Source: Candidatus Eiseniibacteriota bacterium
Lineage (GTDB): Bacteria; Eisenbacteria; RBG-16-71-46; DASYSL01
NCBI GenBank assembly: GCA_046598045.1
Contig: JBKJJJ010000127.1
Span: 9,419-73,418, forward strand
Direction of reading: 5' to 3'
Length of the DNA: 64,000 nucleotides
Shown one piece after another: positions 1 to 15,972 of the stretch. The notes below the pieces were generated by a model. The model was not told the origin of the DNA and did no database searches. It saw nothing but the letters and a program-made list of their open reading frames with translations. How positions within the stretch are numbered: position 1 is the first letter of the stretch; each line of letters opens with the position of its first letter. The position numbers and the translations under genes were made by a program.

Positions 1-618
1 GGGCGCGAGATCCTCGAGCAGCGCGAAGCCCATCGCGGGAAACACTTCGCCGGCCTCGCGCGGGCGGCGGCTCGCGAGCAGCGCGCCGGTCGCCTTGTCC
101 CACGCGGTCTGGACGAACAGGCGCGAGAACGCCGGGTGCGATGCGTCGGCGGCCGCGTGGTGGAGCACGACCTCGAGCGCGGCAGTGGCCGCGATCGTGC
201 GCGGCCCGGGCGAGCGGTTCGTGAGCGTCAGGCGGCGCACCTCGAGCGCGCGGCCCGGCACGACGGCAATGTCGAGCACGGCCTCGATGCCGTGTTCCTC
301 GCGCTCGAGCGTAAACCTGCCCGGGGTCCAGCGTGCGGACGCCGTCCCCGATCGTGGCGCGATCGGCTCGACACCGACCGACCACAGTGCGCCGCTCTCG
401 GCGTCCTGCAGGTAGATCAGCGTGCCCTCCCGGTCCTCGACCGGGTCGGCGGACCAGCGCGTGAGCGCGAAGTCTTCGAACGTCGTGCCGCCACAGCCTG
501 CGGCCGTGACGAGCGTGACGAACTCGCCGTCCGCGAGACGGGCGGCAATGCGCGGCGCCCGGAGCGTCGGCGTCGCGCCCCGGGCGGCGAGGATGGACGA
601 GGGCGGAGGAGGCGTCAT
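1..618 (-). CDS. Partial (N-terminal part only; gene continues past window start) GH94-family glycoside phosphorylase, cellobiose/1,2-beta-oligoglucan phosphorylase-like
   Basis: Reverse-strand translation begins MTPPPPSSILAARG... at an ATG overlapping the upstream stop (ATGA). The motif TLIYLQDAESGALWSV matches the conserved GH94 N-terminal beta-sandwich motif (compare YVYLRDDDSGDYWS in chitobiose/cellobiose phosphorylases). RLTLTNRS matches the TVTNTSD block. The frame is not in the ORF track because it is truncated by the window edge. Confidence 0.5.
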   Translation of the reverse strand, partial: MTPPPPSSILAARGATPTLRAPRIAARLADGEFVTLVTAAGCGGTTFEDFALTRWSADPVEDREGTLIYLQDAESGALWSVGVEPIAPRSGTASARWTPGRFTLEREEHGIEAVLDIAVVPGRALEVRRLTLTNRSPGPRTIAATAALEVVLHHAAADASHPAFSRLFVQTAWDKATGALLASRRPREAGEVFPAMGFALLEDLAP

Positions 619-2231
619 GGCGCCTGGCGCACGCGGACGAAGCGGGTCGAGGCCGAGCCCTGGTCGGTCGTCAGGCGCACGTAGTAGACGCCCGCGGCGA
701 GGTCCCCCGCCGTGAGCGCGATCGACTGCTCCCCGGCAGGGCGATCGGCGTCGAGCAACGATTGCAGGTGGCGGCCGCGCAGGTCATAGAGATCGAGCCG
801 CACGTGCCCCGGCTGCGGGAGGCGATAGCGCACCGTGCCCGTCCCGCTCAGCGGGTTCGGGGCCACGCCGGCGAGCGACACGCCAGCGAGCGCACCCGGC
901 TCGACGCCGGTGTTGCTGCCCGTGAAGCCCGCGCGCGCGAGTCCCGTGCGCAGGTCGAGGTTCTGGTACGTGCGCGCCCACACGGAGCCGTTGCGATAGT
1001 TCTCCATCATGAGCACGATCGGGCCCTGGTCGATGCCGAGGTAGTCGGTGTCGACCCAGCCGTAGTAAGGATTGAACGCGTCCTTGAAGCCGTACGGCCC
1101 CCACGTAGTGGCGCGCCAGTTGTCCCACAGGTTGTGCAGCAAGGGGACCGAGAGCTCGGGCGTGAACACGATCGAGCTCAGGCCCGCGGTCGGCGTGATC
1201 GTGCCGTTGTCGCTCTGCGACGGCGGCGCGCCGTGGGCGGCGTAACCGAACGGATCGTCGGACGCCGTCAGTCCCCACAGGCTGTCGCTGTAGCCGGTCC
1301 ACGCCCCCGGGTTCGCGATGCAGTACGAGTGCTGCGCCAGGGTCGCGCGCCGCGAATTCTCGGCGTAGTTCGAGCTTTGCGCGCGCATGTAATTGTCCTG
1401 CATCCCGCTGAAGTCGATCCAGCAATGCGAATACTGGTGCGTGAACAGGGGCGGGCAGATCAGGAACGACTGCCCGTACAAGGTCTGCCACAGGTAGTTG
1501 CTCGTCCACTTGCTCCACGCCGTCGTGGGCACGGGGTGCGTCGGGGAGCCGAGCGCGAGGATGTAGAGGATCATCGCCTCGTTGTAGCCGACCCACTGTC
1601 CGAAACCGCCGAAGCCGGTTCCCGGCTTCCAGCCCTGCAGGATGCCCTGGTTGAAATTGCGCGCGAAGTTCCAGTCGGCGCGGTAGTAGATCGAGTCCGC
1701 GAGCTGGCGGATCAGGACCTCCTGCGAATCGGCGCCGGTGAAGTACATCTTCGTGTCGAGGATGCCGGCGAACAGCAGCGCGGTGTCGATCGTCGAGAGC
1801 TCGCTGTCCCACGTGCGCGTCGCCGTGTTCATGTCGAGGAAGTGGTAGTACAGGCCCTTGTAGCCGATCGTGCCGCTCGCCGCGCTGCTCTGCGGCCCGG
1901 TCCAGAACGTGTTGAGCGTGGTCAGGACGCGGCCCTTCACCTGCTCGCGCGTGAGCCAGCCGTGGTCCACGCCGACGCACAGCGCCGAGAGGCCGAAGCC
2001 CGTGGCCGCGATGCTCGCCGGCGAGCCGGCCGTGCTGCGGTCCTTGACCAGGCCGTTCGCGGGGTTCGCCTGCTCCCAGAAATACATCACGCCCGTGTGC
2101 TGCACGGTGTCCACCAGCGCAGCGGTCGTCTGCGCGGCGGCGGGCCTCGCCGCGGGGAGGAGCAGCAGCGCCGTGAGCCAGAACGATGCGGCCCAGCGGA
2201 CCCTGTTCGGAAGACGTCGGCTTCGATTCAT
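615..2231 (-). CDS. Secreted six-hairpin glycoside hydrolase, DUF3131/GH144-like (putative endo-beta-1,2-glucanase family), with C-terminal T9SS sorting domain
   Basis: 538 aa. The N-terminal signal peptide is MNRSRRLPNRVRWAASFWLTALLLLPAARPAAAQ. The central region (GLYYHFLD, DTALLFAGIL, aromatic-rich) resembles the glucoamylase-like DUF3131 fold. The C-terminal roughly 80 aa (LAGVAPNPLSGTGTVRYRL...GVYYVRL...RFVRV) is a typical T9SS type-A CTD. Family assignment is from memory of motifs, not a search. Confidence 0.55.
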   Translation of the reverse strand: MNRSRRLPNRVRWAASFWLTALLLLPAARPAAAQTTAALVDTVQHTGVMYFWEQANPANGLVKDRSTAGSPASIAATGFGLSALCVGVDHGWLTREQVKGRVLTTLNTFWTGPQSSAASGTIGYKGLYYHFLDMNTATRTWDSELSTIDTALLFAGILDTKMYFTGADSQEVLIRQLADSIYYRADWNFARNFNQGILQGWKPGTGFGGFGQWVGYNEAMILYILALGSPTHPVPTTAWSKWTSNYLWQTLYGQSFLICPPLFTHQYSHCWIDFSGMQDNYMRAQSSNYAENSRRATLAQHSYCIANPGAWTGYSDSLWGLTASDDPFGYAAHGAPPSQSDNGTITPTAGLSSIVFTPELSVPLLHNLWDNWRATTWGPYGFKDAFNPYYGWVDTDYLGIDQGPIVLMMENYRNGSVWARTYQNLDLRTGLARAGFTGSNTGVEPGALAGVSLAGVAPNPLSGTGTVRYRLPQPGHVRLDLYDLRGRHLQSLLDADRPAGEQSIALTAGDLAAGVYYVRLTTDQGSASTRFVRVRQAP

Positions 2232-2256
2232 GGATGATCCTCGCGTCGGTGCATGC

Positions 2257-3276
2257 CTAGAAGTCGATGCCCACCGAGAACCGATGCGCTTGATCGAGCC
2301 GCCCCTGGTCGGTGTAGGCGTAATCGAGGTGGAACCCGAGCGCGTTGTTCATCTCGCCCTGGAAACCGGCCCCCAGCGTGAGGCCGGCCTCGGAGTCCCG
2401 GAGGAACAGCTGCTGCCAACCCGCCCGGAGCGCGAACGCCTTCTTGTAAGCGTACTCCGCGCCGAGGTTCATGCTCTCGGAATTGTCGCTCGGGTGAAGC
2501 GCATCGACCGCCAACCGCAGGCTGCTGGCCGCATTGAGCCGGACCGGCAACGCGAGGCCGAAGCGCAGCGTGATCGGCACGCTGAACCGGTCGGTGAAAT
2601 ACGTCGCCGGGATCGTGCCGTTGTCGCCGGAAGAGTTCGGGTCCTGGTCGAAGGTGACGCTCAGGTCGCGACCGTCATAGCGCCCGCCGACGCCGAGGTT
2701 CGAGACCGCCGCGCCCAGCACCAGGCCGTTGTCGTTCACGCGATAGATCGTGCCGAGGTCGACCACGCCGCTCGCGAGCGTGCTGTGCCAGATGCGCTCC
2801 TGCAGGTACGTGATGCGCGCGCCCACCGAGAACCGGTCGGTGATGGGGCGCGCCCAACCCAACCCCAGCGCCACGTCGGAGACGTCGAACGTCTCGCCCG
2901 TGCCGAACGGTTGGCCCACGGTGCGCACGTCGATCGCCCCCGAGTTGAGCGCGGTCAGGCTCGCCACCACCGTGCCGGCATGGCCGATCGGGATCGCGGT
3001 CGACACATGGTTGTAGTCGATGTCCGCGATCCAGCGCATGTGCGAGAACGACACCTCGTGCTTGCTCGTGCGCGCGATCGCCGCCGGGTTGAAGTAGTAC
3101 GCCTCGAGCCCGAGATCGGCCGCCGCTCCGGCGTTGCCCATCGCGGCGATGCGGGCGTTCGGCTCGAGCGTGAGGAACGATCCGACCGTCGTGCCGGTCT
3201 TGTTCTGCGCCTGCGCGGCGCCCGAGAAGAGCGCCAGCGCCACGAGGACGCCCAGGCCCGGCCCGCGCGCCCTCAC
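2257..3276 (-). CDS. Outer-membrane beta-barrel protein of the PorV/PorQ (T9SS-associated, FadL-like) family
   Basis: The ORF-track frame 2257..3753 has an Arg-rich N-terminal extension overlapping the upstream gene. The real start is probably the GTG at 3276 (GTGA overlap with the upstream stop), giving VRARGPGLGVLVALALFSGAAQA as signal peptide. Mature region motifs GSFLTLEPNARIAAMGNAGAAADLGLEAYYFNPAAIA and the alternating beta-strand pattern to a C-terminal F resemble PorV/PorQ/UPF0164 barrels. Confidence 0.5.
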   Translation of the reverse strand: MRARGPGLGVLVALALFSGAAQAQNKTGTTVGSFLTLEPNARIAAMGNAGAAADLGLEAYYFNPAAIARTSKHEVSFSHMRWIADIDYNHVSTAIPIGHAGTVVASLTALNSGAIDVRTVGQPFGTGETFDVSDVALGLGWARPITDRFSVGARITYLQERIWHSTLASGVVDLGTIYRVNDNGLVLGAAVSNLGVGGRYDGRDLSVTFDQDPNSSGDNGTIPATYFTDRFSVPITLRFGLALPVRLNAASSLRLAVDALHPSDNSESMNLGAEYAYKKAFALRAGWQQLFLRDSEAGLTLGAGFQGEMNNALGFHLDYAYTDQGRLDQAHRFSVGIDF

Positions 3277-6200
3277 TTGATCACCGCGAACTTTCCGATC
3301 GCCGGCTTCGCCCCGGGACCTTCGACCTGGTAGACGTAGAGCCCCGGCGCGACGTCGAGGTTGTCCTTGCTCCGCAGGTCCCAGGCCACGAACGCATCCG
3401 CCGAGCCGTCCTGCCGGAGCGTCTGTACGAGGTCGCCGCGCACGTTGTAGATGCGCACCACCGCGTTGAGCGGGATGCCGCGGAACTCGAGCCTTCGTAC
3501 GCCGCGGCCCGACGTGGCGAAGCGCTCCGGCTCGAACGAGGCCGCGCCGACGTAGGGGTTCGGGACGACGTACGGTTGATTCGTCACCGCCTGCCCCGCG
3601 CCGCGCACGACCTGGTCGCCCGAGGTCGTGAAGCGGAACACATCGTCGGCCGCGAGCGGGCGCGCGAGGGTCGCGCGGAACACGTCCCCCGCCGCCGGCG
3701 GACGGAGCGGCCCGTTGGCGCCGATGCCCGCGGTGTCGATCTCGACGCGCCACGTGATCGCCGCCGTGCCCGGCGCGGCCAGCGTGCGCGTCACGATGTC
3801 GATGCGCTCGTCGAGGCGCGAGAGTGTCTGGTCGTTGTTGAGGTCCCTGAAGATGAAGTCGAGCTTGCGTTCACCCGCGGGTTCGAGCGCGAACACCTCG
3901 AACTTCGCGGGGCGCGCCGGCGCGGGGAACTGGGCGAGCCCCGTGTCCTTGACGACGTCGGAGAAGCGCACCTCGATGTCCTCCGGGTAGCCCGGCCGCT
4001 TCAGGTTCCGCGACAGCACCGGCTGGTAGCTCATCTTTCCGGTCGCGTTCGTCGGGCTGCCCGGGAGGAACCCGGCGGTCGCGACCCGCACCAGCGAGTC
4101 CGAAGTCACGATCGGCAGCAGGCCGTCGCCGACCGGACCGATGCCCACGCCGTCGAAGTCCATGCCGAAGTTGAACAGCGTCGTGCCCGCGGTGCTGTCG
4201 AACAGCGCGTAGGTCTCCGCGCGCACGCTGTCGGTGTCGCTGGCCGCGAACGTGACGTGGAACACGTGGCCATCGGGCACCTCGGGCGCGGTCACGACCT
4301 GCACGACCACGCTGCCGACGCCGCGGCCGGCGATGTGGTCGGCGCCGCCTGCCTCGGCACGCGCGTAGCCCGACACCTTGGGCTCGGGACGCACGTGCAC
4401 CGCGTTCTTCGGCAGGATCAGCCCGCCCCGCGGAGTGCGCGAGATCGGAATCGCATTCTCGGACGGATAGAACGAGGCCGAGTCGTTGCTCACCGGCTCG
4501 TACCCGAAGTCGTACGCCGTCACCGCGTAGTAGTAGTCCTGCCCGTTGGTCACCGTGGTGTCGGTCCACGTGTGCTGGATCCCGGTGTCCGACCCGAGGA
4601 AGTAGGACACGCCGGAGATCGTGGTGCGCGAGTAGCCCTCCTTGCCGTCGACGAGGTCGAATTGCGCGATCGGCTTGCCGTTGCCCGCCAGCGGGCCCGA
4701 GCCGTTGCCGGTCGAGATCACCTGGTTGTCGAGGAAGTCCGGGTCGGTCGAGCGGTAGATGCGGTAGCCCTCGAAATCGTAGTCGTTGGTCACCGGGTCG
4801 ATTCCGCGCTCGGCGACGTCGTCCCAGGAGAGGCGCACGTGCCCGTCCCCCGCCTCGGCCCTGAGCGTGGGCACCGGCGGCGGCACGGCGAACTGGTAGT
4901 TCGCGTTGTAGATCTGCTGCACGGTCTTGACGTTCTCGCGCAGCTCGCGCAGGTCGGAGCCGTAGGCGAGCGCAAGGCTGAAGCGCTCGGTCTGCCCCGC
5001 CCTGAGCTGGAACGGCCCCGAGGCAAACAGGAACCCGAGGTTGTAATTCGCGGCCAGCGCCGAGTCGAAGCGCGCCCCCACGCTCGGGTCGGTGAACTTC
5101 TCGAACAGGCGCTGCGGCCAGTTGTTGCTGTCGGTGTAGAACAGCACGTTGTCCGACGTCGGGTCCGGGTTCCCGACGCCCGACTTGATGCGGTTCATCT
5201 TGAAGCCGGTGAGCCCGATCTGGTCCGACTCGTTGAGGTCGGTGCGGTCGAAGTTCGGCTCGCCCTCGGTCGGGATGCCGTCGCCCTCGCCCGCGTCCTG
5301 GGTCCCCGGCACGCCGTCGCCGCCGACGTCGCTGTACTGCGTCGTCCAGTCCATGTCCTCGTCACCCGTGAACCACGTGCCGAACTTGAACGCCGGGCGG
5401 TTGTCGAGCGGGCCGTACGCGGTCTCGAACTTCGCGAGGTCGTAGTGCGTCGTCACGTAGTCGCGGATCGCGGCCTGGCCGTCGATGCGCGTGCCGGGCC
5501 CGCCGTCCCGGCTCTCGTCGGTGATGCCGTCGTTGTCGTCGTCCAACCCGTTGAACTTGTTGCCCGGCGTCTCGAGGTAGGCGTAACCGAGGTAGCCGGT
5601 CTTGCCGCAGTTGCCCGAGAGGTCGCGACCATGGCCGTTCTTGTCCCACGTGTAGACCAGGTTGAGGCCCGAGGACTTGTCGAAGTACGCGTTGTCGTCG
5701 TCGGACTCGTAGATGCCGTCGCACGACAGCGACGAGCCGCCCACGCCCGAGTCCATGTACAGCCCGAAGATGATGTCGTCGTTGTAGTCGGTCGTGCTCT
5801 CGTTGGTGATGTCGTAGTGCCAGAAGATGACGTTGCCGGCCTGCGGGTTCGCCCACTGGAACCCGCGCACCTGCACGCGCAGGCCGAGCCCCTTGCGCGT
5901 CGAGTCCCGGCTGTCGGGGTAGTAGTCCCACGCGTCGTAGTACTGGTCGTCCATCACGGTGAAGCTCTCCTGGTCGGCCGCCGGGCGCTTGCCGAAGTAG
6001 CCGTTCCAGCTGCCGTCCCAGCCCGGATCCGAGGGATCGAGCAGCTTGTCGGGCCACTGGCCAGGCCACGTGCGCGGATCGTTGCTGATCGCCGGCGAGC
6101 GCCCGCGATTGATCGTCGGGTCGGGCTGGAAATACCCGGGCCGCGGCTCGAAGCGCATGATGTTGTTCGTGTACGGGCTCGCGGCCTGGCGCTCGCGGAA

Positions 6201-6557
6201 GCCGGTCTCCATGATGTACTGGTCGAGCCCGGAGACGTCCTTGATCTTCGCGAGCACGAACGGGGTGACGCCGTCGGAGTAGTTCATGCCCGTGCCCTTG
6301 GGCACTTCGACCGAGTGGAACACGGACAGGTCGACGTTGCCCGGGTCGGCCGGGTAGTCGCCCACCATCCCGAAGTTCCAGAACAGGGTGCGGATGCGCG
6401 CCGCGTCGTGGGTGCCGGAGCGCTCGGCGTCGGCGCGGCCGCGCTGGTCGGCCGGCACCGGCGTGACCACTTGCGCGCCCGCGGGGCGCGCGCTCGCCGC
6501 GGCGCAGAGCGCGAGCGCCAGCGCGGCCGCCACGATGATGCGAGGACGCAAGCTCAC
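3273..6557 (-). CDS. Large secreted protein (about 1094 aa) with an FN3 domain, thrombospondin-type-3-like DxDxDG calcium-binding motifs and a T9SS C-terminal sorting domain; function unknown
   Basis: The ORF-track frame 3273..9149 is a run-on through the upstream TonB receptor. The real start is inferred at the GTG at 6557 (in frame, GTGA overlap with the receptor stop), giving signal peptide VSLRPRIIVAAALALALCAAASARPAGAQ. Motifs present are GLDDDNDGITDESRDGG and GDGVPGTQDAGEGDGIPTEGEPNFDRTD (Ca-binding type), PPPVPTLRAEAGDGHVRLSWDDV...YYYAVTAYDFG (FN3), and a C-terminus GLYVYQVEGPGAKPAIGKFAVIK (T9SS CTD). Confidence 0.6.
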   Translation of the reverse strand: MSLRPRIIVAAALALALCAAASARPAGAQVVTPVPADQRGRADAERSGTHDAARIRTLFWNFGMVGDYPADPGNVDLSVFHSVEVPKGTGMNYSDGVTPFVLAKIKDVSGLDQYIMETGFRERQAASPYTNNIMRFEPRPGYFQPDPTINRGRSPAISNDPRTWPGQWPDKLLDPSDPGWDGSWNGYFGKRPAADQESFTVMDDQYYDAWDYYPDSRDSTRKGLGLRVQVRGFQWANPQAGNVIFWHYDITNESTTDYNDDIIFGLYMDSGVGGSSLSCDGIYESDDDNAYFDKSSGLNLVYTWDKNGHGRDLSGNCGKTGYLGYAYLETPGNKFNGLDDDNDGITDESRDGGPGTRIDGQAAIRDYVTTHYDLAKFETAYGPLDNRPAFKFGTWFTGDEDMDWTTQYSDVGGDGVPGTQDAGEGDGIPTEGEPNFDRTDLNESDQIGLTGFKMNRIKSGVGNPDPTSDNVLFYTDSNNWPQRLFEKFTDPSVGARFDSALAANYNLGFLFASGPFQLRAGQTERFSLALAYGSDLRELRENVKTVQQIYNANYQFAVPPPVPTLRAEAGDGHVRLSWDDVAERGIDPVTNDYDFEGYRIYRSTDPDFLDNQVISTGNGSGPLAGNGKPIAQFDLVDGKEGYSRTTISGVSYFLGSDTGIQHTWTDTTVTNGQDYYYAVTAYDFGYEPVSNDSASFYPSENAIPISRTPRGGLILPKNAVHVRPEPKVSGYARAEAGGADHIAGRGVGSVVVQVVTAPEVPDGHVFHVTFAASDTDSVRAETYALFDSTAGTTLFNFGMDFDGVGIGPVGDGLLPIVTSDSLVRVATAGFLPGSPTNATGKMSYQPVLSRNLKRPGYPEDIEVRFSDVVKDTGLAQFPAPARPAKFEVFALEPAGERKLDFIFRDLNNDQTLSRLDERIDIVTRTLAAPGTAAITWRVEIDTAGIGANGPLRPPAAGDVFRATLARPLAADDVFRFTTSGDQVVRGAGQAVTNQPYVVPNPYVGAASFEPERFATSGRGVRRLEFRGIPLNAVVRIYNVRGDLVQTLRQDGSADAFVAWDLRSKDNLDVAPGLYVYQVEGPGAKPAIGKFAVIK

Positions 6558-9247
6558 GATCCGCCTCCCTTGACGCCGCCGCCCGCGAACCTCAGGCCGA
6601 CCTCGATCCGCCGCGGCGCGTAGTAGCGCGTCGGGTCGGCGAGCAGCGGCGCATCGGTCGAGAAGCGCGAATAGTACGGGCTGCCCGAAGTCGAAAACAC
6701 GCCGCCGTTGAAGAACCGCTGGTCGAACAGGTTGAACACGCGCACGAACGCGTGCGCGGGCATGTGCCCGACCGACAGGTCCTTCTCCGCGCGCAGGTCC
6801 ACGAGGAACGACCCGGGCTTGCGGCCCGAGTTCGCCTCGAGCCCGTTGCCGAAGCCCGCGTCGACCGCGGGCGTGAAGGGCTGTCCGCTGACCACGCGCA
6901 CGATCGTCGACAGCAGGTAGTTGTCCGCCTTGCCGTAGCTCGAGGTCAGGTTGAGCGTGTGCCGCTGGTCCCAGTTGAACGGGATCTCGCGCGGTCGCGG
7001 GTCCTCGCCGTTGGTCGCTCGGGTCGCGGTCTCGCGCGGGTCGCTCGAGTTTCCGGTCGCCTTCTGCCACGTGTAGTCGAGCGTCAGGCCAAAGGGGCCG
7101 GACGGCCTCAGGTCGAACGCGACCGTGAAGCCGAGCACGCTGCCGAAGTCGATGTTCGTCAGCCGGGCGTACTCGGCGTCGTTGTAGGTCTGGATGAACT
7201 CGACGCCGAGCAGGTCCCTGATGTCCTTGTAGAACACGGTCAGGTCCGCGCCCAGGTTCTCGCTGATCGCGGTCTTGTATCCGCCCTCGTACTGGATCGT
7301 GCGCTCGGGCTTGATGTCCGGGTTGCCGAGGACGCCGATCTGGGCCTCGCTCTGCGGCGTCGCCTGCAGCTTCGCGAGCACCGAGTAGTCGGCGTTCGTG
7401 AAGATATCCCCGAGCGACGGGAACTGCGTGAAGTGCCCGTAGGCGAAATGCGCCGCGGACCTGGGGCCGGTCGGCCACGACACGCCGATGCGGGGGGAGA
7501 TCGCGAACTTGGACGTGGTCGCGACCGGCTGCGAGAGCGGCGCGCCGGGGAGCGCGTTCGCCGGGTTCGCGAGGTCGCTCGGGATCGTCGAACGCGCGTC
7601 GAACAGATCGAAGCGCACTCCGGCGCGCAACGTAAGGTCGTTGAATTCGAGCTGGTCCTGGCCGAACGCGGAGGCCACGAGCGGGAAGTACGTGCGGTAG
7701 CCCGCGAAGTTCGGCGGCTCGTCGACGTGACGATACAGGCTGTCGCCGAACACGGTGATCGTGCCGGGAGGCCCGAACGTGACGCGCGGCAACTGGAACT
7801 CGGCGCCGAACTTGAGCTGGCTGACCTCGGAGGCCTGGCGGACGTAGGAGGTCTTGAACAGCAGCGTGTTCGTGTTCTGGATGAAACGATTGAGGTTGAT
7901 GCCCTGGAACACTGCGTTGTCCTGGAAGTTCGCCGAGCTGTGCGGAGCTCCGGCCGCGTCGTACCGTGCATCGTACAGGTTGGCGAACGCCCAGTCGTGA
8001 TAGTCGAAGTAATTCTGGCGGATCGCGAGCGTGGCGAAGCTCTTCTTGTCGAACGTGCGGTTGAAGTCGAGGCCGTGCACGATCGAGTAGGTGTGCTTCT
8101 TCGTCCGGCCGTCGGGCAGCAGGCGGTACGCCCAGTCGACCGACTGCGCGTCGATCAGATTGACGATCGCCTGGTAGCCGAGTTCGAGGTTCGGGACCGA
8201 GCGGTTCGACACCTTGAACACGCCTGACCACTCGCGCGACGTCCCGAGCGGGACCCGCGCGCCGTCGCCGGTCGGCCGGTAGATGCTCGAGTCCGGAGCC
8301 GACTGGTCCGTCGGCACGAACACGCGCTGCCCGTACGCGAAGTCGTCGAACACGGAGCGGCGCGCGTTGACGAGGTAGTTCGTGTGGTGGAGCGGCGTCG
8401 GCCCGCTCAGGCTGAGCTGGTAGCTCTGCGTGCCGGTCGGACGGAACGAGTAGCCCTCGAGGGCGCGGCGCGACGCGGCGTTGAACGCCAGGAAACCGCC
8501 GCCGTAGACCTCCGCGTTCCACTCGAACTTGTCCGCGCCACGCTTCAGGATCGCGTTGACCACGCCACTCTGCGCCTGCCCGTACTCGGCGTCGAATGTG
8601 CCGCTGATGACCTGCACCTCCTCGAGCAACGAGCGGTCGAGGCGGAGCGACGACTTGTTGTCGTAGGCGTTGTTCACCGAGATGCCGTCGACCTGGTACT
8701 GGACCTCGCCGATGCGCCCGCCGCGGAAGTGGCCGTCGACAACGCCGGCCTGCAGGTTCACCACGTCGTCGAGGCTCTGCACCGGGAGTTTGGCGATCTC
8801 CTGCGCGGACACGGTCGCGATCGAGTTCGTGCGCGAGACCTCGACCACGGGCCGCGTCGCCTTGACCACGACCTCGCCGATCTGGAGCGCCTCTTCCTTG
8901 AGCGAGACGTCGAAGCGGGCGGTCAGGTCGGCCGAGACCGTGACGCCCGTCGTGACCACCGCACCGTAGCCGAGCAGGTTCACGCGCACGTCGTAGCTGC
9001 CGGGCGGGAGGTTGAGAATCGAGTAACGGCCGTCGATGTCGGTCGCGGCGCCGGTGCGCAGGGCGGGCAGCGCGACGCTCGCCCCCACCAGCGGCTGGCC
9101 CTTGGCGTCGGTCACGCGGCCGGCGAGCTTGCCGGTCGTGCCCGCCCAAGCCGAGTCCGCAAGAAACGTGGGTGCGGCCACGCCGGCCGCCATCCCCGCG
9201 AGCGCGAGGATGGCGACCAGCAAGCGCCTTCTCGACGCGCCGATCAC
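6554..9247 (-). CDS. TonB-dependent outer-membrane receptor with N-terminal carboxypeptidase-regulatory-like domain
   Basis: 897 aa. Signal peptide MIGASRRRLLVAILALAGMAAGVAA. GRVTDAKGQPLVGASVAL...TDIDGRYSILNLPPGSYDVRVNLLGY is a CarbopepD_reg_2 domain. Plug region VVVKATRP...IATVSAQEIAKLP...DDVVNLQAGV follows. A long beta-barrel ends ...RRIEVGLRFAGGG. The start codon is GTG, overlapping the upstream stop as GTGA. Confidence 0.85.
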   Translation of the reverse strand: MIGASRRRLLVAILALAGMAAGVAAPTFLADSAWAGTTGKLAGRVTDAKGQPLVGASVALPALRTGAATDIDGRYSILNLPPGSYDVRVNLLGYGAVVTTGVTVSADLTARFDVSLKEEALQIGEVVVKATRPVVEVSRTNSIATVSAQEIAKLPVQSLDDVVNLQAGVVDGHFRGGRIGEVQYQVDGISVNNAYDNKSSLRLDRSLLEEVQVISGTFDAEYGQAQSGVVNAILKRGADKFEWNAEVYGGGFLAFNAASRRALEGYSFRPTGTQSYQLSLSGPTPLHHTNYLVNARRSVFDDFAYGQRVFVPTDQSAPDSSIYRPTGDGARVPLGTSREWSGVFKVSNRSVPNLELGYQAIVNLIDAQSVDWAYRLLPDGRTKKHTYSIVHGLDFNRTFDKKSFATLAIRQNYFDYHDWAFANLYDARYDAAGAPHSSANFQDNAVFQGINLNRFIQNTNTLLFKTSYVRQASEVSQLKFGAEFQLPRVTFGPPGTITVFGDSLYRHVDEPPNFAGYRTYFPLVASAFGQDQLEFNDLTLRAGVRFDLFDARSTIPSDLANPANALPGAPLSQPVATTSKFAISPRIGVSWPTGPRSAAHFAYGHFTQFPSLGDIFTNADYSVLAKLQATPQSEAQIGVLGNPDIKPERTIQYEGGYKTAISENLGADLTVFYKDIRDLLGVEFIQTYNDAEYARLTNIDFGSVLGFTVAFDLRPSGPFGLTLDYTWQKATGNSSDPRETATRATNGEDPRPREIPFNWDQRHTLNLTSSYGKADNYLLSTIVRVVSGQPFTPAVDAGFGNGLEANSGRKPGSFLVDLRAEKDLSVGHMPAHAFVRVFNLFDQRFFNGGVFSTSGSPYYSRFSTDAPLLADPTRYYAPRRIEVGLRFAGGGVKGGGS

Positions 9248-11160
9248 TTCACGAACGTGAGCTTGCCCGACAGCGATGCGCGTTCGGCGCCGCTCGCGGG
9301 ATCCGTGACGTGCAGGCGGTAGAACACGACGCCCGACGCCGCCGAGCGCGGCACGGAGACGCGGCCGATGCCGGCTTCGTGCAACCCGAGGTCGCGGTGG
9401 GCGATCAGCCGCCCGGCCAGGTCGAAGGTCTCGAGCGCGAGCGCGCTCTTCTCCGCGAGCCGGAACTGGATCGCCGATTCAGCGCGTCCCGGGTTCGGCG
9501 CCGCGCCGAGGATCGTGTACGCGGCGACCGGTTTCGGACCGGGATCCCCCACGCCCACGATATACGTCGGATCGGCATACGCCCAGATCGGGCAGCACTG
9601 GTTCTGGCGCTCGCGCATGAACCAAGTGCGGGTCGCGTAGCTGTCCGTATACGGCGTGAACGAGTCGCCGTCGTTCATGTTGATGCCGAGGTGAATGATC
9701 CCGTCGCCGAGCCCGTTCGGATAGCCGAGCTTGGTCAGGTCCACGCCGAGTTCCGCCGTGTAGCCCTGGTCCGGCGAGGTGCCGACCGTGTCGACGACCG
9801 TCCCCGGCTTGAGCTGGAGCGCCACCTGCGCGCCGAACGCCGTGTCGCGCAGGAAGGGGAGGAAGTCCCGGGCGATCGCCGACCCGCTCGCCCCGACCTG
9901 GAACGAGAGCGTGCGATTCTTGAGCTCGTGGTCGGAGCCCTGCAGCGTCTTCTCCGTGAGGATGATGTTGAAGCCGTCCCAGCGATCGGGATCGGCGACG
10001 TACTGCACCGCCTGATCCCGCACGTCGAACGCGAAGTACAGCCAGTTGCCCTTGATGATGTACTTGATGGTCGCATCGCCGGGATCGGCGACGAACGCCA
10101 CGCCGCCGTTGATCGTCGGCTGGAACTGGCCGGAGCGGTACTTCGCAACACCGGGATAGCTTGCGCGCAGGGCATCGTCGCCATAGCGCATGTCGAAACT
10201 CGGCGCCGCGGCCCACACGGGGTCGTTCAGGTTGCCGTCGACCACGGGCGCGGCGAGCGCGCCCGCACTCGGGATGATCAATTCGGGTGCAATCACGGGG
10301 GTTGGCCCCGAGGCAACGTTCACGCTCGGCTTGGCATTGACCCGAACCTCGCCATACCACCCGACATTGCCCCACGGGTCCTGCCACCACACGCGGTTCG
10401 AGCTGAACTTCGTCACGTCGAGCGGCCAGAACCAGTCGGTGTCGTAGATCGAGATGTTCCACTCCATGACGTCGCCGGCGGGCTGCGTCACGTCGTAGCC
10501 CATCGGAGTCAGGTTGAAGCGCATCTCGACCGTGTAACCGCCGTCCAGCTGCGTGGTCTTCGGCGAGAACGCGTGCAGCGTGTCCTCGTTGACCGTTCCG
10601 TCGACGATGTAACCCGCGTCCCAGTTCGCGATCTGCTCGGCAGTACGCGCGGAGCCGCGCGGGTTCTCGCCCCAGCTGCCGTAGAACGTCGGGACCTGGC
10701 CGAGCGGCGGCGTGCCGACGATCGTCTGGTCGTCCCACGACCAGAAGTACTCCGCGACGGGCTTCGGAAAGTTCGGGCTCGAGTGGTCCTTGAGATCCAT
10801 GATGAAGCCGTCGAAACGGTTGAACATCGGGCCGCCGCCGACCGACTGGTCCTTGACCCGCGCGCCCATGTAGAGCTGGTTGCCGACGGTGAGGAACTTG
10901 AGCGTGACCGCCGTGGAGTCGATCGGGAGCTTGCCGGCCTCGACCTTGTAGCCGCTGCCCGGCACGCCACTGTCGATGCCGAAGCGGATCTGGATCGAGT
11001 CGGCGAACGCCCAGGCCGCCTCGTTCATGTTGCCGTCGAGCGTGATCGGGGCGCCGTTCGTCGAGCGGGCCCAGATCGCGTCCTTGCGCTGCGCCAGTGC
11101 CGGCGTGGCCATCAACAGCAGGAGCCCGAGGCCGAGCCAGGATGTCAGTCGATTCTTCAT
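9244..11160 (-). CDS. Secreted protein with CBM9/DOMON-like carbohydrate-binding domains and T9SS C-terminal sorting domain
   Basis: The ORF-track frame 9244..11757 carries a 199-aa Arg/Pro-rich spurious extension. The real start is the ATG at 11160 (MKNRLTSWLGLGLLLLMATPALAQ) overlapping the LacI stop (ATGA). Two repeats of the form LDGNMNEAAWAFADSIQI and VDGNLNDPVWAAAPSFDM are typical of carbohydrate-binding family 9-like modules. The C-terminus ...GVVFYRLHVTDP...GKLTFVK is a T9SS CTD. Confidence 0.6.
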   Translation of the reverse strand: MKNRLTSWLGLGLLLLMATPALAQRKDAIWARSTNGAPITLDGNMNEAAWAFADSIQIRFGIDSGVPGSGYKVEAGKLPIDSTAVTLKFLTVGNQLYMGARVKDQSVGGGPMFNRFDGFIMDLKDHSSPNFPKPVAEYFWSWDDQTIVGTPPLGQVPTFYGSWGENPRGSARTAEQIANWDAGYIVDGTVNEDTLHAFSPKTTQLDGGYTVEMRFNLTPMGYDVTQPAGDVMEWNISIYDTDWFWPLDVTKFSSNRVWWQDPWGNVGWYGEVRVNAKPSVNVASGPTPVIAPELIIPSAGALAAPVVDGNLNDPVWAAAPSFDMRYGDDALRASYPGVAKYRSGQFQPTINGGVAFVADPGDATIKYIIKGNWLYFAFDVRDQAVQYVADPDRWDGFNIILTEKTLQGSDHELKNRTLSFQVGASGSAIARDFLPFLRDTAFGAQVALQLKPGTVVDTVGTSPDQGYTAELGVDLTKLGYPNGLGDGIIHLGINMNDGDSFTPYTDSYATRTWFMRERQNQCCPIWAYADPTYIVGVGDPGPKPVAAYTILGAAPNPGRAESAIQFRLAEKSALALETFDLAGRLIAHRDLGLHEAGIGRVSVPRSAASGVVFYRLHVTDPASGAERASLSGKLTFVK

Positions 11161-12209
11161 GAGTGTCGCCTCCTGCGATCCGAGTGATTCGGGAACGCCG
11201 CTCTGGGGTCTTCGGGCGCACCACAGGAACGTCGGATCACGAGTTGCGTTCCGACGAGTTCGTGGCGCGGCACGTCGCCCGGGACGCCTTCCTTCACCTC
11301 GATCAGGCGATGGACGGCGCGGGCGCCGAGTTCGATCAGGTCCACGTGTACGGTGGTGAGGGCCGGCGTGAGGTAGCGGGCCATGGCGATGTCGTCGAAG
11401 CCGGCGATCGCGAGGTCGTCGGGCACACGGAGCCCCGCCTCGGACAGCGCGCTCATCGCGCCGACCGCCATGTAGTCGTTGCCGAAGAACGCGGCGGTCG
11501 GCCGGGGCGAAAGCTCGAGCAGGGTCTCGACGGCGCGATAGCCCGAGGGCTCGGTGAAGTCGCCCTCGATCTCGAGCTGTGCGTCGTGCGCGATCCCCGC
11601 CTCCGCGAGCGCGGCGCGATAGCCCGCGACGCGCTGCTGGGCGTCGATATTGTGCCTGGGCCCGGTCACGGTCGCGATGCGCCGGTGCCCGAGTCCGACG
11701 AGATGGCGCACGACCTGGAACGCGCCGTCCTGGTTCGCGATCGAGATCGTGTCCCACGTCGCGACGCCGAACCCCGGATCGAGCACGACCACCGGAAATT
11801 CCCCGGCCGCGTCGTGCATCGCCGCCGCGGAATCGAAGTCGGGCGCCATGACGAGCAGGCCGTCCACCCGGCCGCGCATCGAGCGCATCGCCGCCACCAG
11901 TCCATGCGTGTCGGAATGCGAACTCGAGACCAGCAGGTGAAAGCCCTCGCGCCGGGCGGCGAGGTCGATGCCACGAATGAGTTCGGAGAAGAAGTCGCCG
12001 TAGAGGTCGGGCAGGAGCACGCCGAAGGCGTGGGTGCGGCTGGTGATCAGGCTGCGGGCGACGCCGTTCGGCCAGTACTTGAGGCGCCCCGCGACGTCCT
12101 TGACCCGATGGCGCGTCTCGTCGGAGACGAGCTCGCTGTCGTTGAAAACCCGGGACACGGTGGCCACCGAGACTCCTGCCTCACGCGCGACGTCTTTGAT
12201 GTTGGCCAT
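11157..12209 (-). CDS. LacI-family transcriptional regulator
   Basis: MANIKDVAREAGVSVATVSRVFN... is a canonical LacI HTH, followed by a periplasmic-binding-like sugar-binding core. The start is the ATG at 12209 (the ORF-track 5' extension is Arg-rich junk). The stop overlaps the downstream gene start as ATGA. Confidence 0.85.
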   Translation of the reverse strand: MANIKDVAREAGVSVATVSRVFNDSELVSDETRHRVKDVAGRLKYWPNGVARSLITSRTHAFGVLLPDLYGDFFSELIRGIDLAARREGFHLLVSSSHSDTHGLVAAMRSMRGRVDGLLVMAPDFDSAAAMHDAAGEFPVVVLDPGFGVATWDTISIANQDGAFQVVRHLVGLGHRRIATVTGPRHNIDAQQRVAGYRAALAEAGIAHDAQLEIEGDFTEPSGYRAVETLLELSPRPTAAFFGNDYMAVGAMSALSEAGLRVPDDLAIAGFDDIAMARYLTPALTTVHVDLIELGARAVHRLIEVKEGVPGDVPRHELVGTQLVIRRSCGAPEDPRAAFPNHSDRRRRHS

Positions 12210-12282
12210 GAGGAGAGCTCCCGGCCCCCGAGCCCGCCCGGGGAGAGCCCGGGCGGGACGGGACCGTGCCTGGAGACGCTGT

Positions 12283-13083: not shown

Positions 13084-13361
13084 CGTTGGGGATCCTCCTC
13101 TTGAAGGACGATTTTCTGAGACAAGGTTCGACGATGGTTCCAAACGAGAGTCGATGCAGCGGTGATTCGGCGATGCTCGCCGGAGGCCAGCATGAGGCGT
13201 GCGTCGCCGGGGGAAACCGGAGGAAGTCGATGCGAAATCGAGGGATGGCCTTCCGTTCCGATTACTGTTGTAAACGTTTACATGGCAGGGGTGACAGTGT
13301 CAACGAGGAATCCGGGGAATCGGCCCTCGAGGGGGATCAGTTTTCCCCCGACACTGGCTAA

Positions 13362-15853: not shown

Positions 15854-15972
15854 GGCCCCGGGAGGTTACCCGCACGAGAGCCCCGAAGCCAAGCTGTTGT
15901 GCTACAATTTTGGGCCGGATTCGCGCACCGGTTCCCCACTCTTGGAACCGTGCCCGACCGCGGGAGCGACGA

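What the first reader, a model, noticed from the sequence alone, without database searches (positions are those of the whole stretch)
1..12209. LacI-controlled, translationally coupled locus resembling a polysaccharide utilization locus that pairs GH94 with a DUF3131/GH144-like hydrolase (beta-1,2-glucan signature), a TonB receptor, a PorV-like barrel and three T9SS-cargo proteins
Seven consecutive minus-strand genes are joined by 4-nt overlaps (ATGA at 11157-11160, GTGA at 9244-9247, 6554-6557 and 3273-3276, ATGA at 615-618): LacI, CBM9-like protein, TonB-dependent receptor, large FN3/TSP3 protein, PorV/PorQ-like barrel, DUF3131/GH144-like hydrolase, and GH94 phosphorylase. The GH144 endo-beta-1,2-glucanase plus GH94 1,2-beta-oligoglucan phosphorylase pairing is the established route for beta-1,2-glucan catabolism. 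That is known from Chitinophaga and Listeria, but there it is combined with SusC/SusD or ABC importers. Here the SusD position after the TonB receptor is taken by an unrelated 1094-aa T9SS-secreted protein. A T9SS shuttle-like barrel is embedded in the operon, and three operon products carry T9SS CTDs. This suggests a non-Bacteroidetes, T9SS-dependent analogue of a polysaccharide utilization locus. The partial GH94 gene continues beyond coordinate 1.
Basis: partly seen in the sequence, partly recalled or inferred. Interest (0 to 1): 0.65.

Follow-up and report, generated by a model that had tools for sequence, protein, structure and literature searches.

The report
SusD-less glucan uptake locus using T9SS parts
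This is a sugar-regulated operon in a Candidatus Eisenbacteria-like bacterium that most likely harvests beta-1,2-glucan, built around a three-gene outer-membrane cassette that recurs beside many different glycan-degrading enzymes in Bacteroidota-related phyla and that I did not find described in the literature searched.

Summary
All seven genes, the five 4-nt overlaps and the family assignments were verified.

- **Enzymes.** The hydrolase is a clear GH144 beta-1,2-glucanase homologue (XcSGL, E 3e-106). The GH94 fragment is closest to the GH94 domain of cyclic beta-1,2-glucan synthase.
- **Locus limits.** The locus is longer than reported. An eighth gene (12283-13083) lies upstream. A perfect LacI-type palindrome, TGTAAACGTTTACA, sits at 13269-13282. 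The same palindrome heads orthologous operons in several phyla.
- **Main new result.** The 1094-aa "unknown" protein belongs to a large family with no Pfam or NCBIfam model (3307 clusters at 50% identity). Among 80 genome loci, a TonB receptor lies directly upstream in 68 and a PorV/PorQ-family barrel directly downstream in 69. All exceptions are contig ends or local rearrangements.
- **Neighbours of the paralogous cassettes.** These carry GH16, GH3, GH5, GH9, GH10, GH43, GH66, alpha-amylase, CBM20 and CBM9 proteins, mostly with T9SS C-terminal domains. The phyla include Ignavibacteria, Calditrichota, Rhodothermales, Marinimicrobia and KSB1.

How the three proteins interact, what they bind, and whether this organism has a T9SS remain inferred.

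The parts
1..618 (-). 5' part of a GH94 phosphorylase gene (first 206 codons; it runs off the window). No signal peptide, so it is probably cytoplasmic.
   Evidence: PF06165, 2e-43. Best solved relative is the cyclic beta-1,2-glucan synthase GH94 region, 8rf9 residues 1533-1707, E 5e-26. The counterpart in the syntenic locus L003 is 1185 aa with PF06165 plus PF17167 and matches 8rf9 at 2e-240; its N-terminal domain is only 35% identical to this fragment.
615..2231 (-). GH144-type endo-beta-1,2-glucanase homologue (538 aa) with a signal peptide and a type-A T9SS C-terminal domain (nt 618-866).
   Evidence: PF10091, 2e-77. TIGR04183, 36.6 bits against a cutoff of 23. XcSGL 8xul, E 3e-106; CpSGL 5gzh, 2e-55. 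The general-acid Glu (GYNEAM) and the clan Phe and Tyr align with XcSGL E239/F286/Y367 (PMC12102758).
2257..3276 (-). PorV/PorQ-family outer-membrane beta-barrel (339 aa) encoded directly after the 1094-aa protein. It is the proposed dedicated carrier or anchor for that protein.
   Evidence: NF033709, 197 bits (cutoff 90). It falls below the PorQ cutoff (101 against 220) and the PorV cutoff (77 against 250). Its only solved relative is F. johnsoniae PorV, 6h3i_F, 1e-8. A homologue lies directly downstream of the 1094-aa homologue in 69 of 80 loci.
3273..6557 (-). 1094-aa secreted protein of a large family with no Pfam or NCBIfam model. It has a signal peptide, an N-terminal ~530-aa domain with a beta-supersandwich-like fold and Asp-rich loops, an FN3-like region, a variable beta-sandwich region (residues ~701-990), and a divergent but highly conserved CTD (nt 3276-3587).
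   Evidence: No Pfam or NCBIfam hit. 3307 representative clusters at E<=1e-3. AlphaFold models. Foldseek matches to supersandwich-containing GH15-like, GH94, GH116 and GH149 enzymes, E 2e-7 to 1e-3. CTD: hhalign probability 97% against type-A CTDs; weak hits to the PorU and PorZ CTDs. Conservation by region.
6554..9247 (-). TonB-dependent receptor (897 aa) with an N-terminal carboxypeptidase-regulatory-like domain. It is not a SusC/RagA-family member.
   Evidence: PF13620, PF07715 and PF00593. TIGR04056, 76.8 bits against a cutoff of 368. Only its N-terminus matches a SusC homologue, 8aa4, 8e-6. A homologue lies directly upstream of the 1094-aa homologue in 68 of 80 loci.
9244..11160 (-). Secreted 638-aa protein with CBM9-like modules and a degenerate type-A T9SS CTD (nt 9247-9528). 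It is a likely surface glycan-binding protein.
   Evidence: CBM9_1, 26.2 bits. 10 of 12 proteins in the same position hit CBM9_1 (best 1.4e-12) and 8 of 12 hit Por_Secre_tail. The profile matches T. maritima Xyn10A CBM9, 1i82, 3e-6. CTD profile probability 99.95%.
11157..12209 (-). LacI-family transcription regulator (350 aa).
   Evidence: PF00356, PF13377 and PF00532. NF007075, 230 bits. A LacI gene occupies this position in L001, L004-L009 and L012.
12233..12257 (-). G+C-rich hairpin (10-bp stem) in the 73-nt spacer between the 266-aa gene and lacI. There is no U-run and its role is unknown.
   Evidence: Read. RNA fold of 84 nt: -46 kcal/mol, z -2.4. The consensus terminator scan did not find it.
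12283..13083 (-). Eighth gene of the locus: a 266-aa secreted protein of unknown function, first gene after the operator.
   Evidence: ORF with a GGAGGA ribosome-binding site and a signal peptide. No Pfam or PDB hit. Homologues occur inside the orthologous loci L003 (N-terminal part of an 818-aa CTD protein) and L004.
13269..13282 (.). Perfect 14-bp palindrome TGTAAACGTTTACA, the probable LacI operator, 186 bp upstream of the 266-aa gene.
   Evidence: Unique in the window even with up to 2 mismatches allowed, against 0.01 expected. Exact copies lie 50-160 bp upstream of the first operon gene in L006, L007, L010, L011 and L012, and copies with 1-2 mismatches in L003, L004 and L005.

Best explanation
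The locus (1 to about 13282, minus strand) is a LacI-repressed operon for scavenging beta-1,2-glucan.

Proposed sequence of events (steps inferred unless marked otherwise):
1. LacI binds the palindrome at 13269-13282 until a sophoro-oligosaccharide-type inducer appears.
2. The GH144 endo-beta-1,2-glucanase and the CBM9-like protein are exported by a T9SS-type route through their C-terminal domains and act at the cell surface.
3. The 1094-aa protein is exported the same way. Its unusually conserved, PorU/PorZ-like CTD is not removed. It stays docked on the dedicated PorV/PorQ-family barrel encoded next to it, beside the TonB receptor.
4. There it plays the role that SusD or another surface glycan-binding protein plays in Bacteroidota. 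It captures oligosaccharides and passes them to the TonB receptor.
5. Oligosaccharides cross the inner membrane through a transporter that is not in the window.
6. The cytoplasmic GH94 enzyme phosphorolyses them to glucose-1-phosphate.

Shown here: gene content, family membership, the conserved operator, and strict synteny of the three-gene core across phyla and glycan types.

Inferred: substrate, surface location, CTD retention, physical contact between the three outer-membrane proteins, and the presence of a T9SS.
For: Enzymes:
- GH144 homology with catalytic and clan residues kept (PMC12102758).
- The GH94 fragment is closest to the cyclic beta-1,2-glucan synthase GH94 domain.
- The same gene set recurs in Eisenbacteria (L001, L003) and Krumholzibacteriia (L004). 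LacI, the CBM9-like gene, the triad and GH144 recur in Calditrichia and Ignavibacteria, and the LacI/CBM9-like/triad part in a Rhodothermales contig that ends there (L005-L012). The triad proteins are 42-63% identical to the window's.

Regulation: the operator is exact in five orthologous loci.

Core cassette:
- The TonB receptor is adjacent in 68 of 80 loci and the barrel in 69 of 80. The exceptions are contig ends or local rearrangements.
- The three proteins diverge together (r = 0.96 and 0.78).
- Neighbours of the paralogous cassettes are CAZymes and CBMs with T9SS CTDs: Por_Secre_tail in 23 of 40 upstream and 24 of 42 downstream proteins, plus CBM9, CBM20, CBM48, GH3, GH9, GH10, GH16, GH43, GH66 and alpha-amylase.
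- Independent gene calls show laminarin-type loci in an assembly whose protein NCBI/UniRef label Ignavibacterium album and in a contig of the Neomarinimicrobiota (Marinimicrobia) paralogue clade.

Anchor idea:
- The barrel is a PorV/PorQ-family member.
- The CTD is the most conserved region of the 1094-aa family (mean column identity 0.63 against 0.37 for residues 701-990). Its only database similarities are to T9SS CTDs, led by those of PorU and PorZ. Those two are the T9SS proteins known to keep their CTDs and sit on PorV and PorQ (PMC10202324).

Glycan-related fold: the N-terminal domain resembles the beta-supersandwich domains of GH15-like, GH94, GH116 and GH149 enzymes.

Organism: CTD-like C-termini occur on at least five other proteins in the window.
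Against: - No experiment or complex prediction links the three outer-membrane proteins.
- The PorU and PorZ CTD similarities are weak (E 4e-4 to 0.14).
- The N-terminal model is only moderately confident (pLDDT 74) and the fold matches are partial (TM about 0.33).
- No carbohydrate-binding site was identified in the 1094-aa protein.
- T9SS core genes were not seen in the window and could not be searched for in the genome.
- The catalytic domain of GH94 lies outside the window. Characterised 1,2-beta-oligoglucan phosphorylase structures were not among its hits.
- No inner-membrane transporter or periplasmic beta-glucosidase is in the visible part of the locus.
- A hairpin between the 266-aa gene and lacI may split transcription.
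Confidence: 0.6

Rival explanations
1. The 1094-aa protein and its barrel are not part of the uptake step. They form a locus-specific T9SS attachment or processing module, like PorU-PorV or PorZ-PorQ, that anchors or matures the CTD-bearing enzymes encoded beside it.
For: The CTD resembles those of PorU and PorZ. The barrel is PorV/PorQ family. Its length is close to that of PorU. PorZ appears at rank 3 in the full-length fold search. Most neighbouring genes carry CTDs.
Against: There is no peptidase C25 or other catalytic domain. The PorZ fold match has TM of about 0.1. The gene is tied to the TonB receptor as tightly as to the barrel (68 and 69 of 80 loci) and diverges together with it (r = 0.96). 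The N-terminal fold resembles carbohydrate-enzyme supersandwich domains.
Confidence: 0.17
2. The architecture is as described, but the substrate is not beta-1,2-glucan. The GH144-like and GH94 enzymes act on another beta-glucan or glycoconjugate.
For: Specificity is inferred from homology alone. A related SGL-clan protein has no known substrate (PMC12102758). Only 206 residues of GH94 are in the window. Characterised 1,2-beta-oligoglucan phosphorylases were not retrieved. In the Calditrichia, Ignavibacteria and Cytophagia-labelled loci L005, L008, L012 and L034 the GH94 matches only the C-terminal ~800 residues.
Against: E 3e-106 to a characterised beta-1,2-glucanase, with the E/F/Y residues kept. 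The nearest GH94 relative acts on beta-1,2-glucan chains. GH144 and GH94 co-occur repeatedly in the orthologous loci.
Confidence: 0.15
3. The PorV/Q-like barrel works as a FadL-type diffusion channel independent of T9SS, and the 1094-aa protein is simply a secreted adhesin. The clustering reflects co-regulation only.
For: PorV belongs to the FadL superfamily. There are weak Toluene_X/FadL hits. T9SS genes were not demonstrated.
Against: The NCBIfam PorV/PorQ family score is well above its cutoff. The fixed gene order across many phyla and substrates is hard to explain by co-regulation alone. The family's CTD is its most conserved part.
Confidence: 0.05

Closest known systems
Bacteroidota polysaccharide utilization loci (SusC/SusD paradigm)
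   Same: Co-regulated locus with a TonB-dependent transporter that has a carboxypeptidase-regulatory-like N-terminal domain, surface glycan-binding proteins, surface endo-enzymes and a sugar-responsive regulator. There are many paralogous copies, each next to CAZymes for a different glycan.
   Different: There is no SusD-like protein. The receptor fails the SusC/RagA model (76.8 bits against 368). The partner is a ~1100-aa protein with a signal peptide and a CTD rather than a lipoprotein, and it comes with its own PorV/PorQ-family barrel. Surface components carry T9SS CTDs instead of lipid anchors.
Known beta-1,2-glucan catabolic systems: GH144 endo-glucanases CpSGL and XcSGL, and GH94 1,2-beta-oligoglucan phosphorylase clusters
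   Same: Pairing of a GH144 endo-beta-1,2-glucanase with a GH94 phosphorylase. Catalytic and clan residues are conserved (PMC12102758).
   Different: The GH144 enzyme carries a T9SS CTD. The GH94 is a stand-alone ~1185-aa enzyme (by homology to L003) nearest to the synthase GH94 domain, not to the solved phosphorylases retrieved. Uptake is through the SusD-less cassette.
T9SS carrier/anchor pairs: PorU-PorV, PorZ-PorQ, and type-B CTD proteins with PorP/SprF-like barrels
   Same: A CTD-bearing protein is encoded next to a cognate PorV-like barrel. The literature proposes that cognate barrels keep the CTD uncleaved and anchor the protein (PMC10202324, PMC10994853).
   Different: Here the pair is embedded in a nutrient-uptake operon, invariably next to a TonB receptor. 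The barrel reaches neither the PorV nor the PorQ equivalog cutoff. The CTD is a divergent type-A-like variant.
Cytophaga hutchinsonii chu_1276-chu_1280 'atypical PUL' (PMC12016534)
   Same: A SusD-less cluster with a TonB-transporter-like barrel, further outer-membrane proteins, beta-sandwich glycan-binding proteins and an endoglucanase, required for cellulose use.
   Different: As described in the paper, its components are 375-aa SGBP-B-like proteins. No PorV-like barrel or ~1100-aa CTD protein is reported. Homology to the present cassette could not be tested because no sequence was available.
Rhodothermus marinus xylan locus Rmar_1067-1073 (PMC6987092, Table 1)
   Same: Gene order: LacI, CTD-bearing GH43/CBM6 and Xyn10A, TonB receptor, CTD-bearing hypothetical protein, hypothetical protein, CTD-bearing hypothetical protein. 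This is the same layout as the cassette.
   Different: The hypothetical proteins were not analysed in that paper. Their homology to the 1094-aa and barrel families is my inference from the annotation pattern and is not tested. That locus also has a canonical SusC/SusD pair.

Membership tests
GH144 (endo-beta-1,2-glucanase) | Significant sequence similarity to characterised members, with the PF10091 catalytic domain | tested here: met
   PF10091, 2e-77. XcSGL 8xul, 3e-106, over residues 39-439. CpSGL 5gzh, 2e-55.
GH144 (endo-beta-1,2-glucanase) | Conserved general-acid Glu and the clan-defining Phe and Tyr (XcSGL E239, F286, Y367), plus an acidic candidate base in the E-L-S-x-x-D-T-A-L-L helix | tested here: met
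   In the alignment, GYNEAM aligns with GYNQAM of the crystallised chain (Gln where the paper numbers E239). 'plF' aligns with 'pmF' and 'Ya' with 'Ys'. ELSTIDTALL aligns with ELSSVDTALL. Residue roles come from PMC12102758.
GH144 (endo-beta-1,2-glucanase) | Hydrolysis specific for beta-1,2-glucan | not testable with these tools
   Needs an enzyme assay.
GH94 phosphorylase (beta-1,2-glucan-acting branch) | N-terminal supersandwich domain PF06165 | tested here: met
   2e-43 on the 206-aa fragment.
GH94 phosphorylase (beta-1,2-glucan-acting branch) | Catalytic (alpha/alpha)6 domain PF17167 with catalytic residues | tested here: inconclusive
   This domain lies beyond coordinate 1. It is present in the counterpart in the syntenic locus L003 (1185 aa). 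Catalytic residues were not inspected.
GH94 phosphorylase (beta-1,2-glucan-acting branch) | Closest relatives act on beta-1,2-glucan | tested here: met
   The best solved relatives are cyclic beta-1,2-glucan synthases 8rf9 and 8rf0 (5e-26 for the fragment; 2e-240 for the L003 counterpart). Cellobiose and chitobiose phosphorylases score far lower. Solved 1,2-beta-oligoglucan phosphorylases were not retrieved at E<=1e-3.
PorV/PorQ family (T9SS carrier barrels) | Score above the NCBIfam NF033709 family cutoff | tested here: met
   197 bits against a cutoff of 90. PorV 6h3i_F, 1e-8.
PorV or PorQ proper (equivalogs) | Score above the equivalog cutoffs NF033710 and NF033711 | tested here: not met
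   PorV 77.3 against 250; PorQ 101.4 against 220; PorV2 43.7 against 325.
SusC/RagA TonB-dependent transporters | Full-length match to TIGR04056 | tested here: not met
   76.8 bits against a cutoff of 368, N-terminal 120 residues only. SusC homologue 8aa4 matches only residues 40-193. Generic TonB-receptor domains are present.
Canonical PUL | Adjacent susC/susD-like gene pair | tested here: not met
   No SusD-family Pfam or NCBIfam hit in any of the eight locus proteins.
T9SS type-A cargo (TIGR04183 CTD) | C-terminal ~80-aa beta-sandwich sorting domain above threshold | tested here: met
   GH144: 36.6-41.2 bits against a cutoff of 23. CBM9-like protein: 13.9 bits alone, but its orthologue profile matches type-A CTDs at probability 99.95%.
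T9SS type-A cargo (TIGR04183 CTD), 1094-aa protein | C-terminal sorting domain above threshold | tested here: inconclusive
   16.9 bits, below the cutoff of 23. The profile-profile match is 97% (E 5e-11), but only over the last ~60 residues. AlphaFold gives a seven-strand sandwich at residues 1022-1092.
T9SS-dependent secretion | Presence of the core machinery (SprA/Sov, GldK/L/M/N, PorU, PorV) in the genome | not tested
   None of these was found among the window proteins scanned.
LacI-family repressor with operator | HTH_LacI plus periplasmic-binding-protein fold, and a palindromic operator near the regulated promoter | tested here: met
   Palindrome at 13269-13282, conserved in orthologous loci. 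Binding and the effector are not testable here.

The most novel reading that the evidence does not exclude
The TonB receptor, the ~1100-aa CTD protein and its private PorV/PorQ-like barrel form one stable outer-membrane machine. In it, a T9SS-delivered protein is held by an uncleaved CTD on the barrel and acts as the glycan-capturing partner of the transporter. This would be a second design of polysaccharide utilization locus, parallel to SusC/SusD. It would be spread across Ignavibacteria, Calditrichota, Rhodothermales, Marinimicrobia, KSB1, Eisenbacteria and some MAGs labelled Bacteroidota, and would be used for starch, laminarin, cellulose, xylan, dextran and beta-1,2-glucan.
Probability: 0.4. 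Interest if true: 0.85.

Novelty: new variant of a known kind. Interest (0 to 1): 0.72.

Why it matters
PULs built on SusC/SusD explain how Bacteroidota win at glycan foraging. How their sister phyla take up polysaccharides is much less clear, and those phyla include abundant marine Marinimicrobia and soil Eisenbacteria.

A conserved receptor / large CTD protein / PorV-like barrel cassette next to CAZymes gives a concrete and searchable marker for glycan-uptake loci in these lineages. No Pfam or NCBIfam model matches the large protein. The cassette would also extend the role of T9SS carrier barrels from secretion and gliding to nutrient import. It gives the beta-1,2-glucan enzymes GH144 and GH94 an outer-membrane uptake route outside Bacteroidota.

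It can be tested in cultured Ignavibacterium album and perhaps in Rhodothermus marinus.

Tried and rejected
- **Extending past coordinate 1.** An exact-sequence look-up of the GH144 protein found nothing.
- **Promoter and terminator scans.** These gave no signal above the shuffled controls.
- **Fold search with the full-length 1094-aa model.** It returned only generic Ig/FN3 arrays with TM below 0.1, and PorZ at rank 3 with poor superposition. I did not use this as evidence of a PorZ relationship.
- **The 266-aa protein.** It has no Pfam or PDB relative.
- **Second cassette.** There is no second copy in the window.
- **Literature searches.** Searches combining Eisenbacteria with T9SS, PorV-like with TonB, Melioribacter, Marinimicrobia and Rhodothermus with PUL and T9SS terms, and PorV2 found no description of this cassette. 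These searches cover open-access text only.
- **Cytophaga chu_1276-1280 cluster.** I considered it as a possible published equivalent. As described it has different components.
- **The 1094-aa protein as a glycoside hydrolase.** I considered this and set it aside. Only the non-catalytic supersandwich part of GH15-like, GH94 and GH116 enzymes is matched, and the model has too few helices for an (alpha/alpha)6 barrel.

Full report
**1. The observation**

The window is about 70% G+C throughout.

| Coordinates | Product | Key evidence |
|---|---|---|
| 1-618 | GH94, N-terminal fragment | PF06165, 2e-43 |
| 618-2231 | 538-aa protein with a T9SS type-A CTD | PF10091, 2e-77; TIGR04183, 36.6 bits against a cutoff of 23 |
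| 2260-3276 | PorV/PorQ-family barrel | NF033709, 197 bits against a cutoff of 90 |
| 3276-6557 | 1094-aa protein | no hit in either library |
| 6557-9247 | TonB-dependent receptor | CarboxypepD_reg, Plug and barrel domains |
| 9247-11160 | CBM9-like protein | CBM9_1, 26.2 bits against a cutoff of 23.4 |
| 11160-12209 | LacI regulator | PF00356, PF13377, PF00532 |

The remaining junction (barrel to GH144) is a 25-nt spacer with a GAGGA site.

**2. The locus is longer than reported**

Reading upstream of lacI shows an eighth minus-strand gene at 12283-13083. It encodes 266 aa with a signal peptide and has no Pfam or PDB relative. A perfect palindrome, TGTAAACGTTTACA, lies 186 bp upstream of it at 13269-13282. 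No other site in the 64 kb matches it even when up to two mismatches are allowed, against 0.01 expected.

The same 14-mer, exact or with one or two mismatches, lies 50-160 bp upstream of the first operon gene (lacI or the CBM9-like gene) in orthologous loci. These come from Eisenbacteria, Krumholzibacteriia, Calditrichia, Rhodothermales and Ignavibacteria. In L003 it also lies upstream of the homologue of the 266-aa protein.

A 10-bp G+C hairpin without a U-run sits between the 266-aa gene and lacI (12233-12257). Its role is open.

**3. The enzymes**

*GH144.* The hydrolase matches the characterised GH144 beta-1,2-glucanase XcSGL (8xul) at E 3e-106 and CpSGL (5gzh) at 2e-55. In that alignment the general-acid Glu (GYNEAM), the clan-defining Phe and Tyr, and the acidic ELSxxDTALL helix are all kept. 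The residue roles come from PMC12102758.

*GH94.* The fragment is closest to residues 1533-1707 of cyclic beta-1,2-glucan synthase (5e-26). In a 4.16-Mb Eisenbacteria contig (L003) the syntenic gene is 1185 aa and matches the synthase GH94 region at 2e-240. Cellobiose and chitobiose phosphorylases score about 1e-70.

Beta-1,2-glucan is therefore the best-supported substrate. It remains an inference, for three reasons. The catalytic domain of GH94 is outside the window. Solved 1,2-beta-oligoglucan phosphorylases were not retrieved.

**4. The C-terminal domains**

Only the GH144 CTD passes the HMM cutoff on its own.

- Orthologues of the CBM9-like protein in lower-G+C phyla carry a textbook GNYPNPFNPST motif. 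Their C-terminal profile matches generic type-A CTDs at 99.95% probability.
- Ten of twelve proteins in that position hit CBM9 and eight hit Por_Secre_tail. The profile finds the T. maritima CBM9 structure.
- The C-terminus of the 1094-aa family matches CTDs at 97% probability, but only over its last ~60 residues.
- Its only other similarities are weak ones to T9SS CTDs and FlgD-like domains. The best are the CTDs of PorU and PorZ (4e-4 and 6e-4 in NCBIfam; 0.034 and 0.14 in PDB).
- CTD-like ends occur on at least five further proteins in the window.

**5. The 1094-aa protein and the cassette**

*A large unmodelled family.* The word-indexed search found more than 2280 homologues. The top 120 are all full-length, 65-90% identical, without Pfam domains, and mostly named Candidatus Eisenbacteria where named at all. 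The exhaustive search found 3307 representative clusters at E<=1e-3 and 543 at E<=1e-30.

*Strict synteny.* An alignment of diverse members was used to scan one genome per species. This gave 80 loci from Krumholzibacteriia, Calditrichia, Ignavibacteria, Melioribacteraceae, Rhodothermales, Balneola, Marinimicrobia, KSB1, Stahlbacteria and various MAGs labelled Bacteroidota.

- tblastn with the window's proteins shows a homologue of the TonB receptor directly upstream in 68 loci.
- A homologue of the PorV/Q-like barrel lies directly downstream in 69 loci.
- Every exception is a contig end or a rearrangement within the same locus (L017, L026, L028).
- Identities of the three proteins to the window's copies rise and fall together (r = 0.96 and 0.78).
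- Some loci carry two cassettes in tandem (L035, L066).

*Orthologues.* The loci with 55-63% identity also carry LacI, the CBM9-like gene and/or GH144, and some carry GH94. They are orthologous beta-1,2-glucan loci.

*Paralogues.* The loci with 29-39% identity sit in other contexts. A Pfam census of their nearest co-directional neighbours gave:

| Position | Proteins | Families hit (number of proteins) |
|---|---|---|
| Upstream | 40 | Por_Secre_tail 23, CBM9 8, PPIase/SurA 7, FG-GAP 4, alpha-amylase 2, GH43 1, CBM6 1, LacI 1, ROK 1 |
| Downstream | 42 | Por_Secre_tail 24, CBM20 9, CBM48 5, GH3 3, GH9 2, and one each of GH66, GH94, GH10 and GH16 |

Independent gene calls with precomputed Pfam hits show the same picture in two further contigs. 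L084 holds a protein that NCBI and UniRef name Ignavibacterium album. L085 holds a protein of the Neomarinimicrobiota (Marinimicrobia) paralogue clade. Both read: sigma-54 response regulator, SSF symporter, CTD protein (with CBM9 in L084), TonB receptor, family member, PorV-like barrel, GH16+CTD, then further GH16 genes or a GH3, and a GH5+CBM6 protein. These are laminarin-type loci.

**6. Structure**

AlphaFold on the full protein with an orthologue-only alignment gave pLDDT 70.5. The C-terminal half was confident, with an FN3-like region, beta-sandwiches and a seven-strand CTD. Foldseek then returned only generic Ig/FN3 arrays.

Re-predicting residues 30-560 with a three-clade alignment gave pLDDT 74 and pTM 0.76. 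Foldseek then matched enzymes that carry an N-terminal beta-supersandwich domain. The hits were dextran dextrinase, GH94 phosphorylases, the cyclic glucan synthase, GH116, GH149 and GH63, with E 2e-7 to 1e-3 and TM about 0.33. The model has too few helices for a catalytic (alpha/alpha)6 barrel.

Conservation across the family, as mean column identity:

| Region (residues) | Mean column identity |
|---|---|
| CTD | 0.63 |
| FN3-like region | 0.58 |
| 30-560 | 0.45-0.47 |
| 701-990 | 0.37 |

This pattern suits conserved docking surfaces plus a substrate-specific module.

**7. Mechanism proposed**

Established T9SS knowledge says that PorU and PorZ keep their CTDs and sit on PorV and PorQ, and that type-B cargo stays on PorP/SprF-like barrels (PMC10202324, PMC10994853). 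By analogy, I propose that the 1094-aa protein is exported and then held at the surface by its conserved CTD on its private barrel, next to the TonB receptor. There it does the job of SusD or another surface glycan-binding protein.

The CTD-bearing GH144 enzyme cuts beta-1,2-glucan outside the cell. The receptor imports the oligosaccharides. The cytoplasmic GH94 phosphorolyses them. LacI controls the operon through the palindrome.

Gene content, family membership, operator conservation and synteny are shown. Localisation, CTD retention, protein contacts, substrate, and the presence of a T9SS in this organism are inferred.

**8. Comparison with what is known**

The locus fails the defining PUL test. 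There is no SusD, and the receptor scores 76.8 against a cutoff of 368 for SusC/RagA. It nevertheless works like a PUL by every contextual criterion.

- It is a member of the known GH144/GH94 beta-1,2-glucan enzyme set.
- The barrel belongs to the PorV/PorQ family but is neither PorV nor PorQ.
- A SusD-less 'atypical PUL' is published for Cytophaga hutchinsonii (PMC12016534), with different components.
- The Rhodothermus marinus xylan locus table in PMC6987092 lists LacI, two CTD-bearing enzymes, a TonB receptor, a CTD-bearing hypothetical protein and a further hypothetical protein in the same order. This probably is the same cassette, left unanalysed. I could not test that.
- Eight literature searches found no description of the cassette. 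They cover open-access text only, so prior description elsewhere cannot be excluded.

**9. Verdict**

Its significance is larger than one locus. It points to a widespread alternative architecture for glycan uptake in the FCB superphylum that does not appear in the literature searched. I rate it a new variant of a known kind, with interest 0.72. It is limited by the lack of any direct evidence for the proposed protein complex.

Noticed in passing
window 15910-31639 (+): A large BTAD/TPR/AAA-type regulator (15910-19536) is followed by three S8 subtilase genes (19533-22187, 22400-25954, 26202-29717; the last two end in FlgD_ig/CTD-like domains) and a TPR/S41-like protein. This looks like a secreted-protease cluster.
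   Followed up: partly
window 36519-46745 (+): A single 3408-aa ORF with 11 DUF11 repeats and a C-terminal OmpA domain, probably a giant cell-envelope-anchored surface protein.
   Followed up: no
window ORF ends near 22073, 25840, 29723, 49915, 61556: The C-termini of at least five other proteins resemble the CTDs of the GH144 or CBM9-like proteins. CTD-type sorting therefore seems heavily used by this organism.
   Followed up: partly
window 12233-12257: A 10-bp G+C stem-loop without a U-run lies between the 266-aa gene and lacI (84-nt fold -46 kcal/mol, z -2.4). It could be an attenuator, a processing site or a stabiliser.
   Followed up: partly
L003 19751-22207 and L004 16126-16923: The 266-aa protein of the window recurs in orthologous loci. 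In L003 it forms the N-terminal part of an 818-aa CTD-bearing protein preceded by an operator-like site. In L004 it is a separate gene after GH144. Its function is unknown.
   Followed up: partly
L035 and L066: Two receptor / large-protein / barrel cassettes lie in tandem within one locus.
   Followed up: no
Paralogous loci, gene directly upstream of the TonB receptor (alignment A3): Seven of 40 upstream neighbours are PPIase/SurA-like chaperones rather than CAZymes. This may be a dedicated folding factor for the outer-membrane components.
   Followed up: no
L005, L008, L012, L034: In the loci labelled Calditrichia, Ignavibacteria and Cytophagia, the GH94 gene matches only residues ~370-1177 of the 1185-aa Eisenbacteria enzyme. 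It appears to be a shorter form lacking the extra N-terminal supersandwich domain that is the only part visible in the window.
   Followed up: no
window 13362-15109 (-): Electron-transfer flavoprotein alpha and beta genes and a LysE exporter directly flank the locus. No sugar transporter is visible on this side.
   Followed up: no
P0391-P0510: The paralogue clade retrieved with the Neomarinimicrobiota (Marinimicrobia) L045 protein is very abundant in ENA, JGI and Tara Oceans data, with clusters of up to 137 member sequences.
   Followed up: no
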